From a virus (taxonomy: Duplodnaviria; Heunggongvirae; Uroviricota; Caudoviricetes), in the IMG/VR virus record IMGVR_UViG_2675903661_000019, positions 1 through 12,930 of that record: a stretch of 12,930 nt of DNA. The stretch is one strand, 5' to 3'. Of this stretch, positions 8,051 to 12,930 are shown one piece after another. The notes under the pieces were generated by a model. That model had not been told where the DNA came from, made no database searches, and worked only from the letters and a program-made list of their open reading frames with translations. Made by a program: the position numbers and the translations under genes. The stretch's first letter is position 1. Each line of letters starts with the position of its first letter.

Positions 8051-8299
8051 CTACTCAGCTAATTTGCTCAGCCCCATGTCTGCATAAGTGCGATTTACTG
8101 CATTTCTCAGGTCTGCGTAGTTCTCCGTTGGCGGCTCCGGTGGCCTCTGTGCCTTCCTGGAACATTCCAGCCGTCGCATCGTAACCTGATGCCGTTCCTT
8201 GTCTATCTCCACCAGTTGCATGACTTCACCCCATCGCGCCGACGCCCTCCGGTAAAAGCCTTTTGCCTCGAGTTCCTCCGCTATGCGGTCATGTACCAT
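8051..8299 (-). CDS. hypothetical protein (82 aa)
   Basis: ATG at 8299 is preceded by GAGGGGG, which overlaps the SSB stop codon (TGAGGGGGTGACGATG); ORF ends at 8051 and is followed by an intrinsic terminator. The longer track ORF (to 8419) would overlap SSB by 110 nt. No family recognised. Confidence 0.5.
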   Translation of the reverse strand: MVHDRIAEELEAKGFYRRASARWGEVMQLVEIDKERHQVTMRRLECSRKAQRPPEPPTENYADLRNAVNRTYADMGLSKLAE

Positions 8300-8309
8300 C
8301 GTCACCCCC

Positions 8310-8720
8310 TCAGAACGGAATACCGTCACCGTAAGGGTCATCGCCTCCCGCTGGTGGCTGATTACCCTGTGTGCCTGTGGTTTTGCGTCTGTTCCCGCCA
8401 GGACGTGCCGCACGGGCACTGATTACGCTGTCTGCAATAACCTGATAACCCTGCCGCGTTTCCCCGTTCTGTCCGGTCCACTGGCTGACCTGCATCGTGC
8501 CGGATACGCTGGCAACGTCGCCTTTTTGATGTTTAGCCAGGAAGTCGGCCTGCTTACCAAATGCGATGACCGATAGCCATAACGTAGCCTGCCCATCCTG
8601 CGCCTGACTACATGGCAACGATACCGCCATACGTGCCAGCGTCATTGGTGTGCCCTTGCTGGTCTGTTTTACCTGCGGGTCGTCCACCAGCCGCCCGTAA
8701 GCTGCTATCTGTGCTGTCAT
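8310..8720 (-). CDS. ssb: single-stranded DNA-binding protein (SSB-like)
   Basis: 136-aa ORF; OB-fold-like core alignable by eye to E. coli SSB (conserved Trp in SQWTGQNG matching RKWTDQSG), Gly/Pro-rich linker and C-terminal acidic tip DDPYGDGIPF resembling the SSB DDDIPF tail; ATGA overlap with the upstream gene. Confidence 0.75.
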   Translation of the reverse strand: MTAQIAAYGRLVDDPQVKQTSKGTPMTLARMAVSLPCSQAQDGQATLWLSVIAFGKQADFLAKHQKGDVASVSGTMQVSQWTGQNGETRQGYQVIADSVISARAARPGGNRRKTTGTQGNQPPAGGDDPYGDGIPF

Positions 8721-9031
8721 GATTCCACCTCTCCGGTTTTAACGTTGATGGTTGTTACCTGTTCCGCTTCGGCAATCTCCCGTTCTGTCAGCGTGGCAAA
8801 GTTTGCCGCCGCCGTGGTCATGAATGCGCTTATCAGGTCGGGATGTTCCTTCGCGTATCCTTCCCGCGTGTGGCGGTCTATCGTTCTGATTGCCACCTTT
8901 AAGGTGTGCTCAGTCATGTCTAACGCTTTATATTTTGGCTCTGTTCTGTCTCTGCGAATTTTGGTCATTTGTCGCCCCTGATTCATGTTTTCGGCTGGCA
9001 TGTTTGTTAAGTGATTTTGATGTATGCGCAT
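8717..9031 (-). CDS. hypothetical protein (104 aa)
   Basis: ATG at 9031 preceded by GAGGGGG about 9 nt upstream; first gene downstream of the iteron region; translationally coupled to SSB. No family recognised. Confidence 0.5.
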   Translation of the reverse strand: MRIHQNHLTNMPAENMNQGRQMTKIRRDRTEPKYKALDMTEHTLKVAIRTIDRHTREGYAKEHPDLISAFMTTAAANFATLTEREIAEAEQVTTINVKTGEVES

Positions 9032-9315: not shown

Positions 9316-11070
9316 TTATAAAAACGCGTCGCAATCGTCTGTTGTAATTGCGTTGGTCTGCGTTACTCCCTTAACTTTTCGCGTAATATATTCATGCCCG
9401 TAAACTTTCGCCGCTGGCTTCATGGCCTTGCTGAACTCAGCCACGTTTAGCGGTTTGCTCCTGCCTGCGTATGCCATAAACGCCAGATAGACGCGGTAAA
9501 GGCTGTTCCTGGTCGTGTACTTCACTGAATCGCCACCGCCCCCCATCATCAGGCCGCGCGCTTCCTCCAGAAAATTCAGGAACTGGCAAAACTCAATAAC
9601 CGGATCCGTCTGTTGCTTTATTGCCAGTGCTTCATCACCGTCACGCTGTTCCAGTAGTAAAGCCCGTGCCTTCTCAGGGTCGGTAAAGTTCGCCAGCAAG
9701 CGGCGGATAATAACGGGGATTTCAGCCGCAATCTTTTCCGGTAGTTCCCTGTCTTTTTCGGCCTCACTGACGATATTGTCGAAACGGAAAATCACGCGAC
9801 GACGTGCCACACCTCCGGCCCGTTCGGTGAATATCATCGGGTTATTGTTGGTCGCCAGCACCACCGCCCTGATTACAGCCGTGAAACGCTTTTCGTATTT
9901 CGGGTTAATTTCCACGGGGTCACCGCCCGTGATTTTCTTGATGCCCGTTCCTTCGCCTGTATATTTCGGCTGGTCAGCCAGGACGATAAGACGACTCCCG
10001 ACAACCTGCGCACGTCCACCAGCATCATCAAGCGATGTCATTTCAGCGCTTACCGTGTTCTGTTTCCCTGCCAGAAGGCTGGCTATGTGTGTGAATGTAC
10101 TTTTACCGCTCCCGCCGTCTCCGGTGGCCTCAATAAACATCTGCCAGTCGTACCGGTTCGCCATAATCATGTACAGCGCGGCACATATACGCATCATCTT
10201 GCGCGGGTCTTTTCCGGCTGCGTGCTCAAGCCATTTATGAAAGTTTGGCGCGTTATCGCGGATGTTCTCCCCTGGTGCTGGTGGCGTGTACTCAATACCG
10301 TTGTGCGTGGTGATCCAGTTCTCCGGCGTGTGCGGGGAAAATTCCCCCGTTTTCAGGTCAAGCGCACCATTGGCAAACGGCAGCAAATCGCCGGACGGCT
10401 CGCCCATTGGTTCGGCAATAACTTTTAACGCTTCCACGGCGTTATTGATTACGCGCTTGCTGAAAGTGGCCCTGTGCTCTGAATAGATCGCCACCATTTC
10501 GCGGCTAAGTTCCATTGTACTGACCGGACACCATACCCCGCCGCGCCATACGTGGACGATTTCACTTTCAGGATGTACGCAAATGCCATCAAAGCGCCCG
10601 GCAAGCAGCTGCGCGCGCTCACTGTCCGCCATCTGCGAAAGTTGTGCCTTTTGCTTTACCGGAAGCTCAATGACCAGACCATCAGAAAGATTCTGGCGCT
10701 CACGGGCCAGATATTCGCGCCAGTTCTCCACCTTCTGAACGTGCATTCCCTCAGGGTAAAAATTTGCATCCTGTACGCCTGCCGCCGCCAGTTTCTGACC
10801 AATCGCCTTGATCATTACTGGCTCAAGATGTCCGGCCCTGAATATGCGTACTGATTTTCTGCCTTCCGGCACAATTTGCAGCTTATCCAGTTCGGATAAC
10901 TGCTGCTCCCCAAGCCACACAGGAGGCTCATTATCTCCGGCCATACGCGCGTCATGTTCCTGCCATTGTTTTGCGTGTGACCAGGCATCACTACCCGCAA
11001 AAATAATGACTTCTGTTTCTTTGTGTTTTATGCCGCGTGACTGCTGTTTTACGTTCGGTGCCAGTTTCAT
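9316..11070 (-). CDS. primase/helicase, P4-alpha / D5-like (satellite Pri-Rep type)
   Basis: 584-aa ORF with central P-loop NTPase Walker A GDGGSGKST and Walker B-like LIVLAD, N-terminal primase-like region; ATGA overlap with the upstream 99-aa gene; iteron-rich AT-containing region begins right at its stop. Confidence 0.8.
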   Translation of the reverse strand: MKLAPNVKQQSRGIKHKETEVIIFAGSDAWSHAKQWQEHDARMAGDNEPPVWLGEQQLSELDKLQIVPEGRKSVRIFRAGHLEPVMIKAIGQKLAAAGVQDANFYPEGMHVQKVENWREYLARERQNLSDGLVIELPVKQKAQLSQMADSERAQLLAGRFDGICVHPESEIVHVWRGGVWCPVSTMELSREMVAIYSEHRATFSKRVINNAVEALKVIAEPMGEPSGDLLPFANGALDLKTGEFSPHTPENWITTHNGIEYTPPAPGENIRDNAPNFHKWLEHAAGKDPRKMMRICAALYMIMANRYDWQMFIEATGDGGSGKSTFTHIASLLAGKQNTVSAEMTSLDDAGGRAQVVGSRLIVLADQPKYTGEGTGIKKITGGDPVEINPKYEKRFTAVIRAVVLATNNNPMIFTERAGGVARRRVIFRFDNIVSEAEKDRELPEKIAAEIPVIIRRLLANFTDPEKARALLLEQRDGDEALAIKQQTDPVIEFCQFLNFLEEARGLMMGGGGDSVKYTTRNSLYRVYLAFMAYAGRSKPLNVAEFSKAMKPAAKVYGHEYITRKVKGVTQTNAITTDDCDAFL

Positions 11071-11366
11071 TTTTTACCCCTGAATCCGTTAATCATGGTT
11101 TTCAGCTTCTGGATGTTTTCCCGTGCTCTGGCGTTGCTGGTGGGCACGTTATGCGGCGCGGTCTGTACCAGAGAAAAATCACGCCGGAACTGATAAACAG
11201 GCATCACGCAATCATATTCGTAACCTTCACGGCGGTAAGTTACGCACCGTCCCGCCACACCCTTAATCATTACCGTGCCGCCGTACTGGTCGCGGTAAAT
11301 ATCACCGCGCGTAAATTTAGGGTGAGTGTTGCCACTGGCAGTTAAGCCAGAATATTTAAGTTTCAT
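11067..11366 (-). CDS. hypothetical protein (99 aa)
   Basis: ATG at 11366 with GGAGA about 9 nt upstream; stop overlaps the primase start; position resembles small early genes that precede primase in P4-like elements. No family recognised. Confidence 0.5.
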   Translation of the reverse strand: MKLKYSGLTASGNTHPKFTRGDIYRDQYGGTVMIKGVAGRCVTYRREGYEYDCVMPVYQFRRDFSLVQTAPHNVPTSNARARENIQKLKTMINGFRGKK

Positions 11367-11371
11367 TATTT

Positions 11372-11599
11372 TTATTCTCCGGTGTGGGGCGCTTTATTAT
11401 TTTCGATAATATCCATCGCCTTATCCAGTTCATCAATAACAGGCGATAGTAATGTCTGAATGGCTGCAAACATTAATGACGAAGATTCTTCGCCAGATTC
11501 CGGCGCTTCAATTAATTTGCCTAACAACGCATTCATTTCGCGCGCTTTAATTAATGCGTTTTCAGAATGAATAAGAACATCAAAGGGTATTTTATGCAT
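11372..11599 (-). CDS. hypothetical acidic protein (75 aa)
   Basis: ATG at 11599 preceded by AGGGGGTGA; acidic, helical-looking sequence; first confidently coding gene of the leftward early operon. Confidence 0.5.
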   Translation of the reverse strand: MHKIPFDVLIHSENALIKAREMNALLGKLIEAPESGEESSSLMFAAIQTLLSPVIDELDKAMDIIENNKAPHTGE

Positions 11600-12056
11600 G
11601 ACTCACCCCCTGGCGAATACGGGCGACAAAAATCAGATGTGTGTGCGGCAGCTGGGCGCGTGCTTCGCCTTCTGTTGCTGCCGTGACGGTAAAGAGTGAT
11701 CTTTGTTTTTCCTGGCACTGCATAAAGCGCCAGACAAAGTAAGGGCGTGCGGATACAGCCATGTGAAAGGCTCCCAAAGTGAAATTAAGGAGTCTCGCTA
11801 CTACGCTGCTAAACGGGGTGGCGAGACGTAACAGGGTTAGCAGACTGGCACTTTGGGAACCAGCGAGCGCAAAGGCTCCCCCGTTACGCCCCGCCATAAT
11901 GCGGGTATGGGTAGGCTTACGGACACAAAAAAACCGCATATCGGAATGTAAGCGGCTGTCCGCCAAAGTATTCAGGCTGCTAAACCCGGTCGCCATGTGG
12001 GCGACGGGGGAAGCATACAGCCCCGTTATAATTTTTTGCAAGCGGTTTTTACGCAT
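11592..12056 (-). CDS. candidate ORF (154 aa, very basic), doubtful; may instead be structured leader RNA
   Basis: ATG at 12056 with CAGGGG 8 nt upstream; 3' end overlaps the next start as CATGCATAA. Its last ~50 codons and the downstream junction are duplicated in the preceding segment (12049-12200). Composition (Ala/Arg/Leu/Ser-rich, few acidic residues) is atypical. Confidence 0.25.
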   Translation of the reverse strand: MRKNRLQKIITGLYASPVAHMATGFSSLNTLADSRLHSDMRFFCVRKPTHTRIMAGRNGGAFALAGSQSASLLTLLRLATPFSSVVARLLNFTLGAFHMAVSARPYFVWRFMQCQEKQRSLFTVTAATEGEARAQLPHTHLIFVARIRQGVSHA

Positions 12057-12330
12057 GATGTGACCCCTGACGAATACGGGCGGCAAATACAGCAACACAA
12101 CCAGACGGGCAACGGCTACGCGCTTCGCGTTCCGTCCAGGCGGTTACGTGGATGATTTGAGATTCTCCGGCACTCAGGGCCAGAAAACGCCAGATGTATT
12201 TATTCAGGTTGTGCGAGTCCCGCCCTTGCGGGTGTGTGATATGATTTCTCATAGCTACCTCGATACTTTCGCTATCGTTGGTGGTCAGAGGCTGCGAAAG
12301 GACGGCAATCCTTTTCAGCCTCGTTTGCAT

Positions 12331-12430
12331 TGAGTGATAAACACTCAGCTGGATTCCAGTATAATCACTAAGTGGAATCCACTTCAAGCGTTTTGTTTTG
12401 GTCTTTTTCGTGTATACTGGATTCCAGTAA
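12331..12430. promoter_or_regulatory. divergent overlapping promoters with three TGGAWTCCA palindromic operators
   Basis: TGGATTCCA at 12350-12358 and 12418-12426, TGGAATCCA at 12373-12381; plus-strand -10 TATAAT at 12360-12365 and TATACT at 12413-12418; minus-strand TTGAAG, 18 nt spacer, TATACT (rc of 12358-12387); palindrome GAGTG-ATAAA-CACTC at 12332-12346. Confidence 0.6.
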
Positions 12431-12448
12431 TCACAAAGGGAACCAGAA

Positions 12449-12628
12449 ATGGAAAGAGACCATATCAATAACAAATCACAGAAATTACAGGCTCGCGCCC
12501 CGCATGAAGTTGTTGAGGCTATGGAGCAAGTAAAAGAAACAGGCGAGAGCACTGCGCAATTTATCGTTACAGCCATGCGAGGCGAGATCAAACGCCGCCA
12601 GCGCCGTAAGGCCAAAGAATCAGAATAA
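12449..12628 (+). CDS. small ribbon-helix-helix-like DNA-binding regulator (59 aa)
   Basis: Not in the ORF track (below 60 aa). ATG at 12449 with AAGGGA upstream, TAA at 12626-12628. KLQARAP (beta strand), HEVVEAMEQVKETGESTAQFIVTAM (helix, G-x-S turn, helix) then a basic tail fits the RHH pattern; transcribed divergently from an operator-rich region. Confidence 0.55.
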   Translation: MERDHINNKSQKLQARAPHEVVEAMEQVKETGESTAQFIVTAMRGEIKRRQRRKAKESE

Positions 12629-12685
12629 TCACTATCAGCGCCGTGGTGTGAGGTACTACGGCGCATTGCTTTACAGGGCAGTACC

Positions 12686-12913
12686 ATGACCAACAACACA
12701 CTATCACCAATACAAGACACGCAAACGCAAGATGATGAAATCATCCGGCAAAGGCAGTCAGAAGCCTGCGCCAGAGTTGAGGAAGAACTAACCAGAACAA
12801 AAATACCACCACCAGCGCCGCGCTTAATGCCACCAGAAAAATTTGCCCTTGAAGATTTTGTCGAGAAATACCCACGGCGGTTAAAAGCCACTAAAAACCG
12901 ACCGCCTGGCTGA
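12686..12913 (+). CDS. hypothetical protein (75 aa)
   Basis: ORF downstream of the RHH gene on the same strand; weak SD (AGGG); Pro-rich centre. No family recognised. Confidence 0.4.
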   Translation: MTNNTLSPIQDTQTQDDEIIRQRQSEACARVEEELTRTKIPPPAPRLMPPEKFALEDFVEKYPRRLKATKNRPPG

Positions 12914-12930
12914 TAGCCTTGTCCACCAGC

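What the first reader, a model, noticed from the sequence alone, without database searches (positions are those of the whole stretch)
11600..12330. About 730 bp between the switch and the first clear gene: duplicated 3' end-plus-junction module, doubtful basic ORFs, possible structured leader RNA
Seen: the segment around 12049-12200 and the segment around 11592-11700 are diverged copies. Each ends in a conserved junction CGCCCGTATTCG-CAGGGG-N5-CATGC-TAA that provides the SD and start for the next gene while closing a minus-strand frame whose translation ends ARIRQG-x-SHA. Comparing the two copies codon by codon gives a mix of synonymous and non-synonymous changes plus a 3-nt indel. The minus-strand ORFs are very basic and Ala/Arg/Ser-rich; the plus strand has nested inverted repeats (CCCAAAGTG at 11775 with CACTTTGGG at 11849; AGTCTCGC with GCGAGAC) and repeated GCTGCTAAAC and AAAGGCTCCC motifs. 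Inference: either two diverged paralogous small genes or a long structured leader, in a position that in P4 holds an RNA-based immunity region.
Basis: partly seen in the sequence, partly recalled or inferred. Interest (0 to 1): 0.55.

Follow-up and report, generated by a model that had tools for sequence, protein, structure and literature searches.

The report
P4/P1-type antisense-RNA immunity module
The 730 bp hold a known kind of phage regulatory module, a small antisense RNA (C4/CI family) flanked by two copies of a small Icd/Kil-like gene, which probably keeps the replication genes of a capsid-encoding phage satellite silent; it is a new example of a known system, not a new one.

Summary
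All features lie on the minus strand. From right to left they are:
- Icd-like gene 1 (12252..12049).
- A promoter-like site (12041..12012).
- The target sites b1/a1 (11985..11963).
- A hairpin followed by a U7 run.
- A C4 antisense RNA (11901..11814; Rfam 71 bits, gathering score 45).
- The target sites b2/a2 (11814..11772), where a2 covers the Shine-Dalgarno (SD) sequence of the next gene.
- Icd-like gene 2 (11762..11592), whose stop overlaps the start of a 75-aa gene.
- DUF4222 and a P4-family primase.

The layout is colinear with the P7 immI region (c4-icd) and with the P4 immunity region (seqA-CI-seqC-kil).

Among 20 C4 loop variants from about 115 loci, each locus's own a1 and a2 sites match its loop: a1 has 7 nt or more in 18/20, a2 in 20/20. 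Foreign pairings reach 7 nt in 0-2 of 380. The pairing is therefore selected, and this window carries its own specificity.

Both Icd-like ORFs hit NF033153, show third-position variation and have dN/dS of about 0.35. The stretch between them shows no codon periodicity.

As with the P4 eta/kil pair, a frame that starts at the icd-1 stop stays open through the RNA into icd-2.

This is a known kind of system, already noted computationally in PICIs. Interest is low to moderate.

The parts
12358..12387 (-). Promoter-like site TTGAAG-18-TATACT in the switch. It is the candidate upstream promoter for icd-1.
   Evidence: Consensus scan, 9 of 12 matches. It is a consensus match only.
12049..12252 (-). 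icd-1, an Icd/Kil-like gene (67 aa plus stop). The SD is GAGG, 5 nt before the ATG at 12252.
   Evidence: NF033153 at 65 bits, cutoff 25. It is 38% identical to P7 Icd. The ORF is intact in 9 related loci, with pooled dN/dS of 0.37 and variable sites of 10/12/19 by codon position.
11592..12056 (-). eta-like nested frame of 154 codons. Its ATG (12056) overlaps the icd-1 stop, is preceded by AGGGG, and reads through b1/a1, C4 and b2/a2 in phase into icd-2.
   Evidence: There are 0 stops in this phase, against 4-8 in each other phase, in 16 satellite-type loci. P1-type loci have 3-8 stops in the same phase. There is no codon periodicity: 12/12/15. PGAP annotates this frame as a CDS in H1. The P4 eta frame behaves the same way.
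12012..12041 (-). Promoter-like site TTGCAA-18-TATGCT for the immunity transcript. The predicted start is near 12005.
   Evidence: It aligns with P7 TTGACC-17-TATAGT, with group B TTGACT-18-TATCGT and with P4 TTGCCT-18-TATAGT. It matches 8 of 12 positions, which is below the scan threshold. The Rfam isrK alignment starts at 12005.
11963..11985 (-). Upstream target b1 (GTTTAGCAGC, 11985..11976) plus a1 (ACTTTGG, 11969..11963). This is the seqA equivalent.
   Evidence: Rfam c4-a1b1 at 45.5 bits, gathering score 46.7. It is the best duplex site for the C4 loop probe, at -34.7 kcal/mol. a1 co-varies with the a' loop across loci.
11927..11957 (-). Hairpin followed by a U7 run (GCCGC...GCGGTTTTTTT), terminator-like.
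   Evidence: It matches the terminator part of the Rfam isrK model (36.4 bits, below the gathering score of 50). It is conserved in P7 and P4. It folds. The simple terminator scan misses it because the loop is 14 nt.
11814..11901 (-). C4/CI-family antisense RNA. The predicted mature form is 11895..11817 (79 nt, ending GCCACC). The a' loop CCCAAAGTG is at 11857..11849 and b' CTGCTAA is at 11843..11837.
   Evidence: RF01695 at 71.1 bits, gathering score 45, E = 1.5e-12. MFE is -45.4 kcal/mol with z = -5.4. The 27-pair consensus has 8 pairs with compensatory changes. The ends are inferred from the annotated 77-nt P7 c4.
11772..11814 (-). Downstream target b2 (GTTTAGCAGC, 11814..11805) plus a2 (CACTTTGGGA, 11781..11772). 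a2 overlaps the icd-2 SD GGGAG (11775..11771). This is the seqC equivalent.
   Evidence: Duplex energy is -31.9 kcal/mol. Each locus's own a2 has a 7-10 nt complement in 20/20 loop types, against 2/380 for foreign pairings. The arrangement is the same at P4 kil.
11592..11762 (-). icd-2, an Icd/Kil-like gene (56 aa plus stop). It is the positional orthologue of P1/P7 icd and P4 kil.
   Evidence: NF033153 at 53.5 bits. It is 51% identical to P7 Icd, E = 1e-12. dN/dS is 0.33 and variable sites are 10/10/24 by codon position.
11372..11599 (-). 75-aa acidic gene whose ATG (11599) overlaps the icd-2 stop (ATGCATAA). [quoted passage not shown]
   Evidence: ORF list. phrog_2196, function unknown. DUF4222 and P4-family primase hits. 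The gene in this slot differs among relatives.

Best explanation
The segment is the immunity region of a capsid-forming phage satellite (cf-PICI-like island). It is built like the P4 left-operon immunity region and uses a P1/P7-type c4 RNA.

Proposed mechanism, with each step marked as inferred or shown:
- A weak internal promoter (12041..12012) transcribes leftwards through b1/a1, a hairpin-U7, the C4 RNA, b2/a2 and icd-2. Transcription then continues into the 75-aa gene, DUF4222 and the primase. (Inferred.)
- The roughly 79-nt C4 RNA is cut out of this transcript, by RNase P as in P1 and P4. (Inferred.)
- The C4 a' loop and b' segment pair with b1/a1 and b2/a2 on further transcripts. (Complementarity and co-variation shown; pairing in vivo inferred.)
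- Pairing at a2 covers the SD of icd-2, so icd-2 is not translated. (Overlap shown; translation block inferred.)
- The untranslated RNA is then terminated prematurely, and the replication genes stay off. (Inferred.)
- The 7-10 nt a' loop sets the immunity specificity. (Inferred from the co-variation.)
- icd-1 is a second, upstream Icd/Kil-like paralogue that C4 does not control.
- The stop of icd-1 overlaps an SD-ATG that opens a frame through the whole RNA region into icd-2. (Open frame shown.)
- By analogy with P4 eta/kil, ribosomes arriving from an upstream, induced promoter would read through this frame and override the RNA block. (Inferred.)
For: RNA identity.
- RF01695 scores 71.1 bits against a gathering score of 45.
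- The consensus structure has 8 compensatory pairs.
- The fold z-score is -5.4.

Colinearity with known systems.
- The region aligns nucleotide by nucleotide with the P7 promoter-a1b1-hairpin-c4-a2b2-icd region. a', a1 and a2 all differ from P7 in a matching way, while b', b1 and b2 are identical.
- The P7 record annotates c4 as an antisense RNA acting on icd and ant.

Target sites.
- The two best duplex sites for the C4 loop probe along the transcript are b1/a1 and b2/a2.
- For 20 loop types, each locus's own a1 has 7 nt or more of complement in 18/20, and its own a2 in 20/20. Foreign combinations reach this in 0/380 and 2/380.

Protein genes.
- Both ORFs hit NF033153.
- Both show third-position excess and dN/dS of about 0.35.

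P4 parallel.
- P4 has C4, isrK and a1b1 hits inside a 214-codon frame whose last 65 codons (kil) are Icd-like. The start of epsilon overlaps the kil stop.
- The mechanism is summarised in PMC10111431 (section 20) and PMC4825925 (section 21).
- RNase P processing of CI and C4 is cited in PMC5499578.

Context.
- The downstream operon holds a P4-family primase.
- The island carries TerL, TerS, HNH, connector, portal, protease, capsid and SSB genes, and no tail genes are found in the window.
Against: - No expression data exist. The promoter, processing, pairing in vivo and termination are all inferred.
- The internal promoter matches only 8 of 12 consensus positions and is not called by the scan.
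- The c4-a1b1 and isrK hits fall below their Rfam gathering scores: 45.5 against 46.7, and 36.4 against 50.
- icd-2 and P4 Kil give no BLASTP alignment. They are linked only through the HMM.
- The role of icd-1 and of Icd-like proteins in satellites is unknown.
Confidence: 0.85

Rival explanations
1. The long minus-strand ORF through the region is an ordinary protein gene: 154 aa from ATG 12056, or 168 aa from GTG 12098. On this view it is an Icd-like protein with an N-terminal extension, and there is no functional RNA.
For: PGAP annotates exactly this CDS in the closest E. coli relative. The frame is open in all 16 satellite-type loci. The Pfam family Phage_ASH matches the equivalent part of P4 eta.
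Against: The linker shows no codon periodicity (12/12/15), and its variation sits in three co-varying blocks, a1, a' and a2. The same DNA scores 71 bits as C4 and has compensatory pairs. It is about 80% identical in nucleotides to P1/P7 c4, where the frame is closed by 3-8 stops.
Confidence: 0.03
2. The control acts mainly as in P4, not as in P1. Pairing of C4 with b1/a1 and b2/a2 on the nascent RNA would cause early transcription termination at or near the hairpin-U7 or a Rho site. Blocking the icd-2 SD would be secondary.
For: b1/a1 is the strongest predicted duplex, at -34.7 kcal/mol. A conserved hairpin-U7 lies between a1 and C4. The P4 mechanism is described this way in PMC4825925 and PMC10111431. 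The downstream genes are replication genes, as in P4.
Against: a2 is the longer complement (10 nt against 7 nt) and overlaps the SD in every locus. This fits the P1-type translational block. The two modes are not exclusive.
Confidence: 0.35
3. The region is a decaying duplication: a pseudogene copy of icd plus a relic RNA, with no current function.
For: The icd-1 N-terminus is mosaic among relatives. The C4-module hits other than C4 itself are sub-threshold in Rfam.
Against: Both ORFs are intact with SD and ATG in all 9 two-copy loci and are under purifying selection. The window's a' loop is unique in the sample, yet it is perfectly matched by its own a1 and a2. That requires recent selection on all three sites.
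Confidence: 0.02

Closest known systems
Satellite phage P4 immunity region (PLE, seqA, CI RNA with seqB, seqC, nested eta/kil genes, then epsilon ... alpha primase)
   Same: The order of elements is the same: promoter, b1/a1 (seqA), hairpin-U run, C4-family RNA, b2/a2 (seqC) over the SD of an Icd-like gene that begins ATGGCT. A long frame from upstream of the promoter ends in that gene. The next gene's start overlaps its stop. A P4-family primase lies downstream.
   Different: The RNA is much closer in sequence to P1/P7 c4, and b' is CUGCUAA against P4 UUCUCAC. The eta-like frame is coupled to an extra Icd-like gene (icd-1), whereas in P4 eta is coupled to vis/alpA. There is no Phage_ASH hit for the eta-like frame of relative H1/L001, which is the frame that was scanned. 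The host element carries its own capsid and terminase genes, and the primase is 584 aa against 777 aa in P4.
Phage P1/P7 immI operon (P51, a1b1, c4, a2b2, icd, ant1/2)
   Same: Nucleotide identity is about 80% over 11804-11993. b', b1 and b2 are identical. a2 sits on the icd SD. icd-2 is 51% identical to P7 Icd. The downstream gene is translationally coupled.
   Different: The controlled genes are a 75-aa protein, DUF4222 and a primase, not the antirepressor Ant. A second icd lies upstream. The frame through c4 is open here but closed in P1-type loci. The a' specificity is different.
C4/isrK hits in Gram-negative PICIs and helper-embedded PICIs ('Bro zone' immunity RNAs; PMC10111431)
   Same: The element class and position are the same, between alpA and the replication genes. 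The same two Rfam models hit.
   Different: That paper reports the hits only in passing. The two-icd arrangement, the a'/a1/a2 specificity types and the open-frame statistics are worked out here. The window is a capsid-forming island.
Gifsy-1 IsrK-orf45-anrP module of Salmonella (PMC4825925)
   Same: A short leader RNA with two hairpins and a terminator, structurally homologous to P4 seqA, is followed by a processed downstream RNA and a controlled small ORF.
   Different: The isrK model scores only 36.4 bits here, against a gathering score of 50. In Gifsy-1, IsrK activates translation of an antirepressor operon in trans.

Membership tests
C4 antisense RNA (Rfam RF01695; P1/P7 c4, P4 CI) | Covariance-model score at or above the gathering score | tested here: met
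   71.1 bits against 45, E = 1.5e-12, full-length model match 1-87.
C4 antisense RNA (Rfam RF01695; P1/P7 c4, P4 CI) | Long basal stem with two internal hairpins, supported by compensatory changes | tested here: met
   27 consensus pairs, 8 of them with double changes, over 26 sequences including P4. MFE z = -5.4.
C4 antisense RNA (Rfam RF01695; P1/P7 c4, P4 CI) | Loop a' and segment b' are complementary to sites upstream (a1/b1) and downstream (a2/b2) on the same transcript, with a2 at the ribosome-binding site of icd | tested here: met
   a2 CACTTTGGGA overlaps the SD GGGAG, 8 nt before the ATG at 11762.
C4 antisense RNA (Rfam RF01695; P1/P7 c4, P4 CI) | Processed from a longer transcript by RNase P, and represses downstream genes | not testable with these tools
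   Only the tRNA-like 3' GCCACC and homology to the annotated 77-nt P7 c4 can be shown. Processing is cited from PMC5499578.
c4-a1b1 target motif (Rfam RF03163) | Covariance-model score at or above the gathering score | tested here: inconclusive
   45.5 bits against 46.7, E = 5.6e-09. P4's own seqA scores 44.1. The positional alignment with P7 is clear.
isrK (Rfam RF01394) | Covariance-model score at or above the gathering score | tested here: not met
   36.4 bits against 50. P4 reaches 60.8. The region is not filed as isrK; only the shape (two hairpins plus a terminator) is shared.
Icd-like protein (NCBIfam NF033153; P1 Icd, P4 Kil) | HMM score above the curated cutoff | tested here: met
   icd-1 scores 65 bits and icd-2 53.5 bits, against a cutoff of 25. 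P4 kil scores 73.9.
Icd-like protein (NCBIfam NF033153; P1 Icd, P4 Kil) | Inhibits cell division or kills the cell when expressed | not testable with these tools
   Stated for P7 Icd in the record and for P4 Kil in PMC10111431. Untested for these proteins.
P4-type immunity region (eta/kil nested genes) | The small gene is the terminal part of a longer frame that starts upstream of the internal promoter and contains the immunity RNA | tested here: met
   The ATG at 12056 lies upstream of the promoter-like site 12041..12012. The frame has 0 stops down to 11592 and is open in all 16 satellite-type loci.
P4-type immunity region (eta/kil nested genes) | Constitutive internal promoter (PLE equivalent) | tested here: inconclusive
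   TTGCAA-18-TATGCT is positionally homologous to the P7 and P4 hexamers. It matches only 8 of 12 positions and is not called by the scan.
P4-type immunity region (eta/kil nested genes) | Rho-dependent termination relieved by translation of eta from an upstream late promoter | not testable with these tools
   Requires transcript mapping and genetics.
Capsid-forming PICI | Own capsid, protease, portal, connector and terminase genes, no tail genes, plus a primase | tested here: met
   Pfam hits for TerL, TerS, HNH, connector, head completion, portal, protease, capsid and SSB, and for the primase.
Capsid-forming PICI | Integrase and alpA at one end; induction by a helper phage | not testable with these tools
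   These genes lie beyond the window's right end. They are present in relative H1/L001, which has int and an AlpA Pfam hit.

The most novel reading that the evidence does not exclude
In this island family the immunity region may be one link of a translational relay.
- A long frame that starts just after alpA runs antisense through the divergent YlcI/YnfO cassette and the switch.
- That frame ends in icd-1, or stops 4-12 nt before the icd-1 ATG.
- The icd-1 stop overlaps the ATG of the eta-like frame, which carries ribosomes across b1/a1, the terminator, C4 and b2/a2 into icd-2 and on to the replication genes.
- This would extend the P4 vis-eta-kil principle to a chain of two Icd-ended frames, one of them kept open antisense to real genes.
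Probability: 0.3. Interest if true: 0.5.

Novelty: new member of a known kind. Interest (0 to 1): 0.3.

Why it matters
- It shows that a capsid-forming satellite carries the RNA-based immunity system of P4 and P1, placed in front of its replication genes. Experimental work on cf-PICIs has described induction through alpA, and the cf-PICI preprint checked here does not mention this RNA.
- The a' loop is a compact, hypervariable specificity determinant, with at least 20 types in the sample. This predicts which islands and P1-like phages cross-repress one another.
- It corrects annotation. The 154-aa 'Icd-like' CDS, the Pfam Phage_ASH family and the PHROG 'transcriptional repressor' labels largely reflect translation of an RNA gene.
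- None of this is new in kind.

Tried and rejected
I switched to an exact C4 core pattern in viral contigs.
- Pfam finds nothing for either Icd-like ORF or for the 75-aa ORF.
- tblastn of icd-1 against phage records found a single hit.
- The 75-aa protein is not similar to P4 epsilon.
- icd-2 gives no BLASTP alignment with P4 Kil.
- Inverted repeat I1 (icd-1 translation start against b1/a1; 21 nt, 76%): L040 and L083 carry the same sequence that lies just upstream of icd-1 in the window but have a different a1, so it does not co-vary. Treated as chance.
- Inverted repeat I7 (AAAAACCGC after the icd-1 stop against GCGGTTTTT of the terminator): it is invariant in group A and absent elsewhere, so it cannot be tested.
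- The idea that C4 also controls icd-1: no a/b-type site is found near its start in the window or in relatives.
Full report
**Orientation**

The genes from 9316 to 12252 all lie on the minus strand, so the region is read from right to left. The window is a capsid-forming, PICI-like island.
- Pfam finds TerL, TerS, HNH, head-tail connector, head completion, portal, prohead protease, major capsid and SSB.
- It also finds a P4-family primase and a DUF4222 protein.
- No tail genes are found in the window.
- The closest E. coli relative that covers the whole immunity region is 87% identical (H1, locus L001). There the same gene order continues to alpA and int, between phoQ and roxA.

**Check of the observation**

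The two 'copies' are the minus-strand ORFs 12252..12049 (67 aa) and 11762..11592 (56 aa).
- They align over 49 residues with a score 18.6 standard deviations above shuffles.
- At codon level there are 12 identical codons, 9 synonymous differences, 27 non-synonymous differences and one 3-nt gap.
- The junction CGCCCGTATTCG-N-CAGGGG-N6-CATGC-N-TAA is present in both copies (D1).
- The inverted repeats and the repeated motifs are present at the stated places (I3, I6, D3-D5).
- A 9-nt inverted repeat is expected about once by chance in 781 bp (my own estimate). The weight of evidence therefore comes from comparison with other loci.

**What the RNA part is**

Rfam gives three hits on the minus strand:

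| Model | Coordinates | Score | Gathering score |
|---|---|---|---|
| C4 antisense RNA (RF01695) | 11901..11814 | 71.1 bits | 45 |
| c4-a1b1 target motif | 12018..11969 | 45.5 bits | 46.7 |
| isrK | 12005..11927 | 36.4 bits | 50 |

- The C4 fold has an MFE of -45.4 kcal/mol, z = -5.4.
- In an alignment of 26 different C4 sequences, including P4 CI, 8 of the 27 consensus pairs show compensatory double changes.
- blastn finds about 80% identity between 11804-11993 and the c4 region of P1, P7, D6, SJ46 and related phages.
- The pairwise alignment with P7 is colinear from the promoter hexamers through a1b1, a hairpin-U run, c4 and a2b2 to the icd start.
- The P7 record annotates c4 as 'antisense RNA acting on targets icd and ant' and Icd as a reversible inhibitor of cell division.
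- By homology with the annotated 77-nt P7 c4, the mature RNA here would be 11895..11817: 79 nt, ending in GCCACC.

- The C4 hairpin loop a' (CCCAAAGUG, 11857..11849) is complementary to a2 (CACUUUGGGA, 11781..11772). a2 overlaps the SD GGGAG, 8 nt before the ATG of the downstream ORF.
- The same loop is complementary to a1 (ACUUUGG, 11969..11963).
- The single-stranded b' (CUGCUAA, 11843..11837) is complementary to b1 and b2. These are the repeated GUUUAGCAGC at 11985..11976 and 11814..11805.
- I scanned the whole transcript with the a'-b' probe. The two best duplex sites are exactly these, at -34.7 and -31.9 kcal/mol.
- GTCTCGC/GCGAGAC is an alternative hairpin that presents b2 in a loop in the unprocessed RNA. 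Its arms change together between this window and P7: TCTCGC/GCGAGA here, CCTGC/GCAGG in P7.

**Co-variation across loci**

An exact-match scan of viral contigs with the conserved C4 core (GCCAGTCTGCTAACCC) returned about 115 C4 loci.
- They carry 20 different a' loops in an otherwise conserved RNA.
- In each locus the complement of its own loop is found at fixed positions upstream (a1) and downstream (a2). a1 has 7 nt or more in 18/20 loop types, and a2 in 20/20.
- Pairing a loop with the sites of another locus reaches 7 nt in 0/380 cases for a1 and 2/380 for a2.
- The three sites therefore evolve together, which is direct evidence that the pairing is selected. The a' loop acts as the specificity determinant.
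- The window's loop does not occur elsewhere in this sample.

**What the protein part is**

- Both small ORFs hit NCBIfam NF033153, 'host cell division inhibitor Icd-like protein', at 65 and 53.5 bits against a cutoff of 25.
- icd-2 is 51% identical to P7 Icd and occupies the same position. icd-1 is 38% identical.
- In the 9 loci that have both copies, the two ORFs are intact with SD and ATG.
- Pooled dN/dS is 0.37 for icd-1 (last 50 codons) and 0.33 for icd-2.
- Variable columns by codon position are 10/12/19 for icd-1 and 10/10/24 for icd-2. For the 294 nt between them the counts are 12/12/15, and the variation is concentrated at a1, a' and a2.
The flanks behave as genes and the middle behaves as RNA.

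**Comparison with P4**

- In P4 (NC_001609), Rfam finds C4 at 8507..8420 (74.9 bits), isrK at 8692..8615 and a1b1 at 8705..8653.
- A 214-codon frame (8812..8168) runs through all of them. Its last 65 codons begin with ATGGCT and are preceded by UUCACAGGAGG. They hit the Icd-like model at 73.9 bits.
- This is the kil gene nested in eta, and the start of epsilon overlaps its stop.
- PMC10111431 (section 20) and PMC4825925 (section 21) summarise the mechanism:
  - a constitutive promoter inside eta gives a transcript that is terminated early through CI pairing with seqA and seqC;
  - that transcript is processed into CI;
  - Kil is translated on read-through;
  - full-length Eta is translated only from an upstream late promoter, coupled to the alpA homologue;
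  - translation of Eta prevents termination.
- PMC5499578 cites RNase P processing of both CI and C4.

**The same nested arrangement here**

- The ATG at 12056 overlaps the icd-1 stop (CATGCGTAA), with AGGGG 7 nt upstream. It opens a 154-codon frame that runs in phase into icd-2.
- That ATG lies upstream of the promoter-like TTGCAA-18-TATGCT at 12041..12012. This site aligns with P7 TTGACC-17-TATAGT, with P4 TTGCCT-18-TATAGT and with TTGACT-18-TATCGT in a second satellite group.
- In 16 satellite-type loci the phase has 0 stops in the 294 nt before icd-2, while the other two phases have 4-8 each. Nine of these loci have icd-1 and seven do not. In P1-type phages the same phase has 3-8 stops.
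- The frame is therefore kept open in satellites, without constraint on its amino-acid sequence. This fits a role for translation itself, as with eta.
- PGAP annotates this frame as an 'Icd-like protein' of 154 aa in H1.

**Most likely mechanism, and what is shown**

Shown:
- the identity of the RNA and of both genes;
- the target sites and their co-evolution;
- the overlap of a2 with the SD;
- the overlapping stop/start junctions;
- the open nested frame;
- the downstream replication genes.

Inferred from P1 and P4:
- transcription from the internal promoter;
- RNase P processing;
- a block of icd-2 translation, followed by premature termination;
- release of the block by translation from an upstream promoter.

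One open point is whether the main effect is the P1-type translational block at a2 or P4-type termination near b1/a1 and the hairpin-U7. The two are not exclusive.

**Novelty**

- C4 and c4-a1b1 were defined as RNA motifs of Proteobacteria and phages in PMC2864571.
- PMC10111431 already reports that the Rfam C4 and isrK models hit several Gram-negative PICIs and suggests an immunity function.
- PMC13612085 notes Icd-like proteins in most Enterobacter satellites.
- The cf-PICI preprint I checked does not mention the RNA.
- The window is therefore a new member of a known kind. It has its own a' specificity and an extra upstream Icd-like copy, which was seen in 9 of about 115 sampled loci.

**Beyond the finding**

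- The phase of icd-1 is itself open for at least 293 codons, up to the window end. It runs antisense through the YlcI/YnfO gene, a second plus-strand ORF and the switch.
- The other two minus phases have 18 and 12 stops in the same stretch. A simulation that keeps the plus-strand proteins gives P = 0.0036 for zero stops.
- In H1 this is a 352-codon ORF starting 57 nt after alpA.
- In all 10 two-copy loci, a 200-460-codon open stretch runs from alpA to icd-1. It is either fused in phase (window, L001, L040) or ends 4-12 nt before the icd-1 ATG (five loci: L021, L023, L045, L058, L104). In the other two, L105 and L083, it ends further upstream.
- This suggests a chain of coupled translation from alpA to the replication genes. 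It remains a hypothesis.

Noticed in passing
window 12049-12930, minus strand; L001 12750-13808: The reading phase of icd-1 has no stop for at least 293 codons, up to the window end. It runs antisense through the YlcI/YnfO gene, the 75-aa plus-strand ORF and the switch. The other two minus phases have 18 and 12 stops, and the simulated P of zero stops is 0.0036. In all 10 two-copy loci a 200-460-codon open stretch runs from alpA to icd-1. It is fused in phase in three loci and ends 4-12 nt before the icd-1 ATG in five; in the other two it ends further upstream.
   Followed up: partly
window 12330-12450: The switch holds three near-palindromes, CTGGATTCCAG twice and GTGGAATCCAC once. It also holds overlapping divergent promoter-like sites: plus strand 12338..12365 (TAAACA-16-TATAAT) and minus strand 12387..12358. 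The adjacent plus-strand gene 12449..12628 belongs to the YlcI/YnfO family (72 bits). Its role as the repressor acting on these sites is my guess.
   Followed up: no
L130 (P4) 8168-8812; L001 12293-12757: The Pfam family Phage_ASH (PF10554) matches residues 37-161 of the P4 eta frame, which is the translation of the seqA-CI-seqC RNA region. The PHROG 'transcriptional repressor' labels for Icd-like proteins probably derive from the old P4 'cI gene product' CDS. PGAP calls the 154-aa frame through C4 an 'Icd-like protein'. These annotations describe an RNA gene as protein.
   Followed up: partly
window 11372-11599 and the equivalent position in L021, L023, L045, L058, L104, L040, L083: The gene whose start overlaps the icd-2 stop differs from locus to locus. 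It occupies the slot held by ant in P1 and by epsilon in P4. Here it is an acidic 75-aa protein (pI 4.7) with only a PHROG of unknown function and no similarity to epsilon. It may be the helper-directed effector.
   Followed up: partly
window 12042-12050 and 11929-11937: A perfect 9-nt complement exists on the transcript. AAAAACCGC lies just after the icd-1 stop, and GCGGUUUUU is the 3' half of the terminator-like hairpin (I7). Only transcripts coming from upstream of the internal promoter would contain the first arm, so it could act as an antiterminator. It is invariant in the two-copy loci and absent elsewhere, so it cannot be tested by co-variation.
   Followed up: partly
L021, L040, L083 (upstream of icd-1); L061: Some related islands carry a third Icd-like segment in tandem upstream of icd-1. 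One P1-type locus has two icd copies downstream of c4. Icd-like modules therefore seem to duplicate repeatedly.
   Followed up: no
L023, L045, L058, L104, L105, about 60-100 nt upstream of the icd-1 ATG: A conserved G+C-rich hairpin of variable sequence, followed by TCTAACC (for example AAGCCCCGCA...GGGGCTTCTAACC), precedes icd-1 in relatives but not in the window. Its function is unknown.
   Followed up: no
window 1-~570: 5425 of 5426 complete E. coli genomes match some part of the window, and 3346 records match at 99% identity or more. The island-wide matches begin only at query positions 295-769. The left end of the window is therefore probably conserved chromosomal DNA next to the island boundary.
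   Followed up: no
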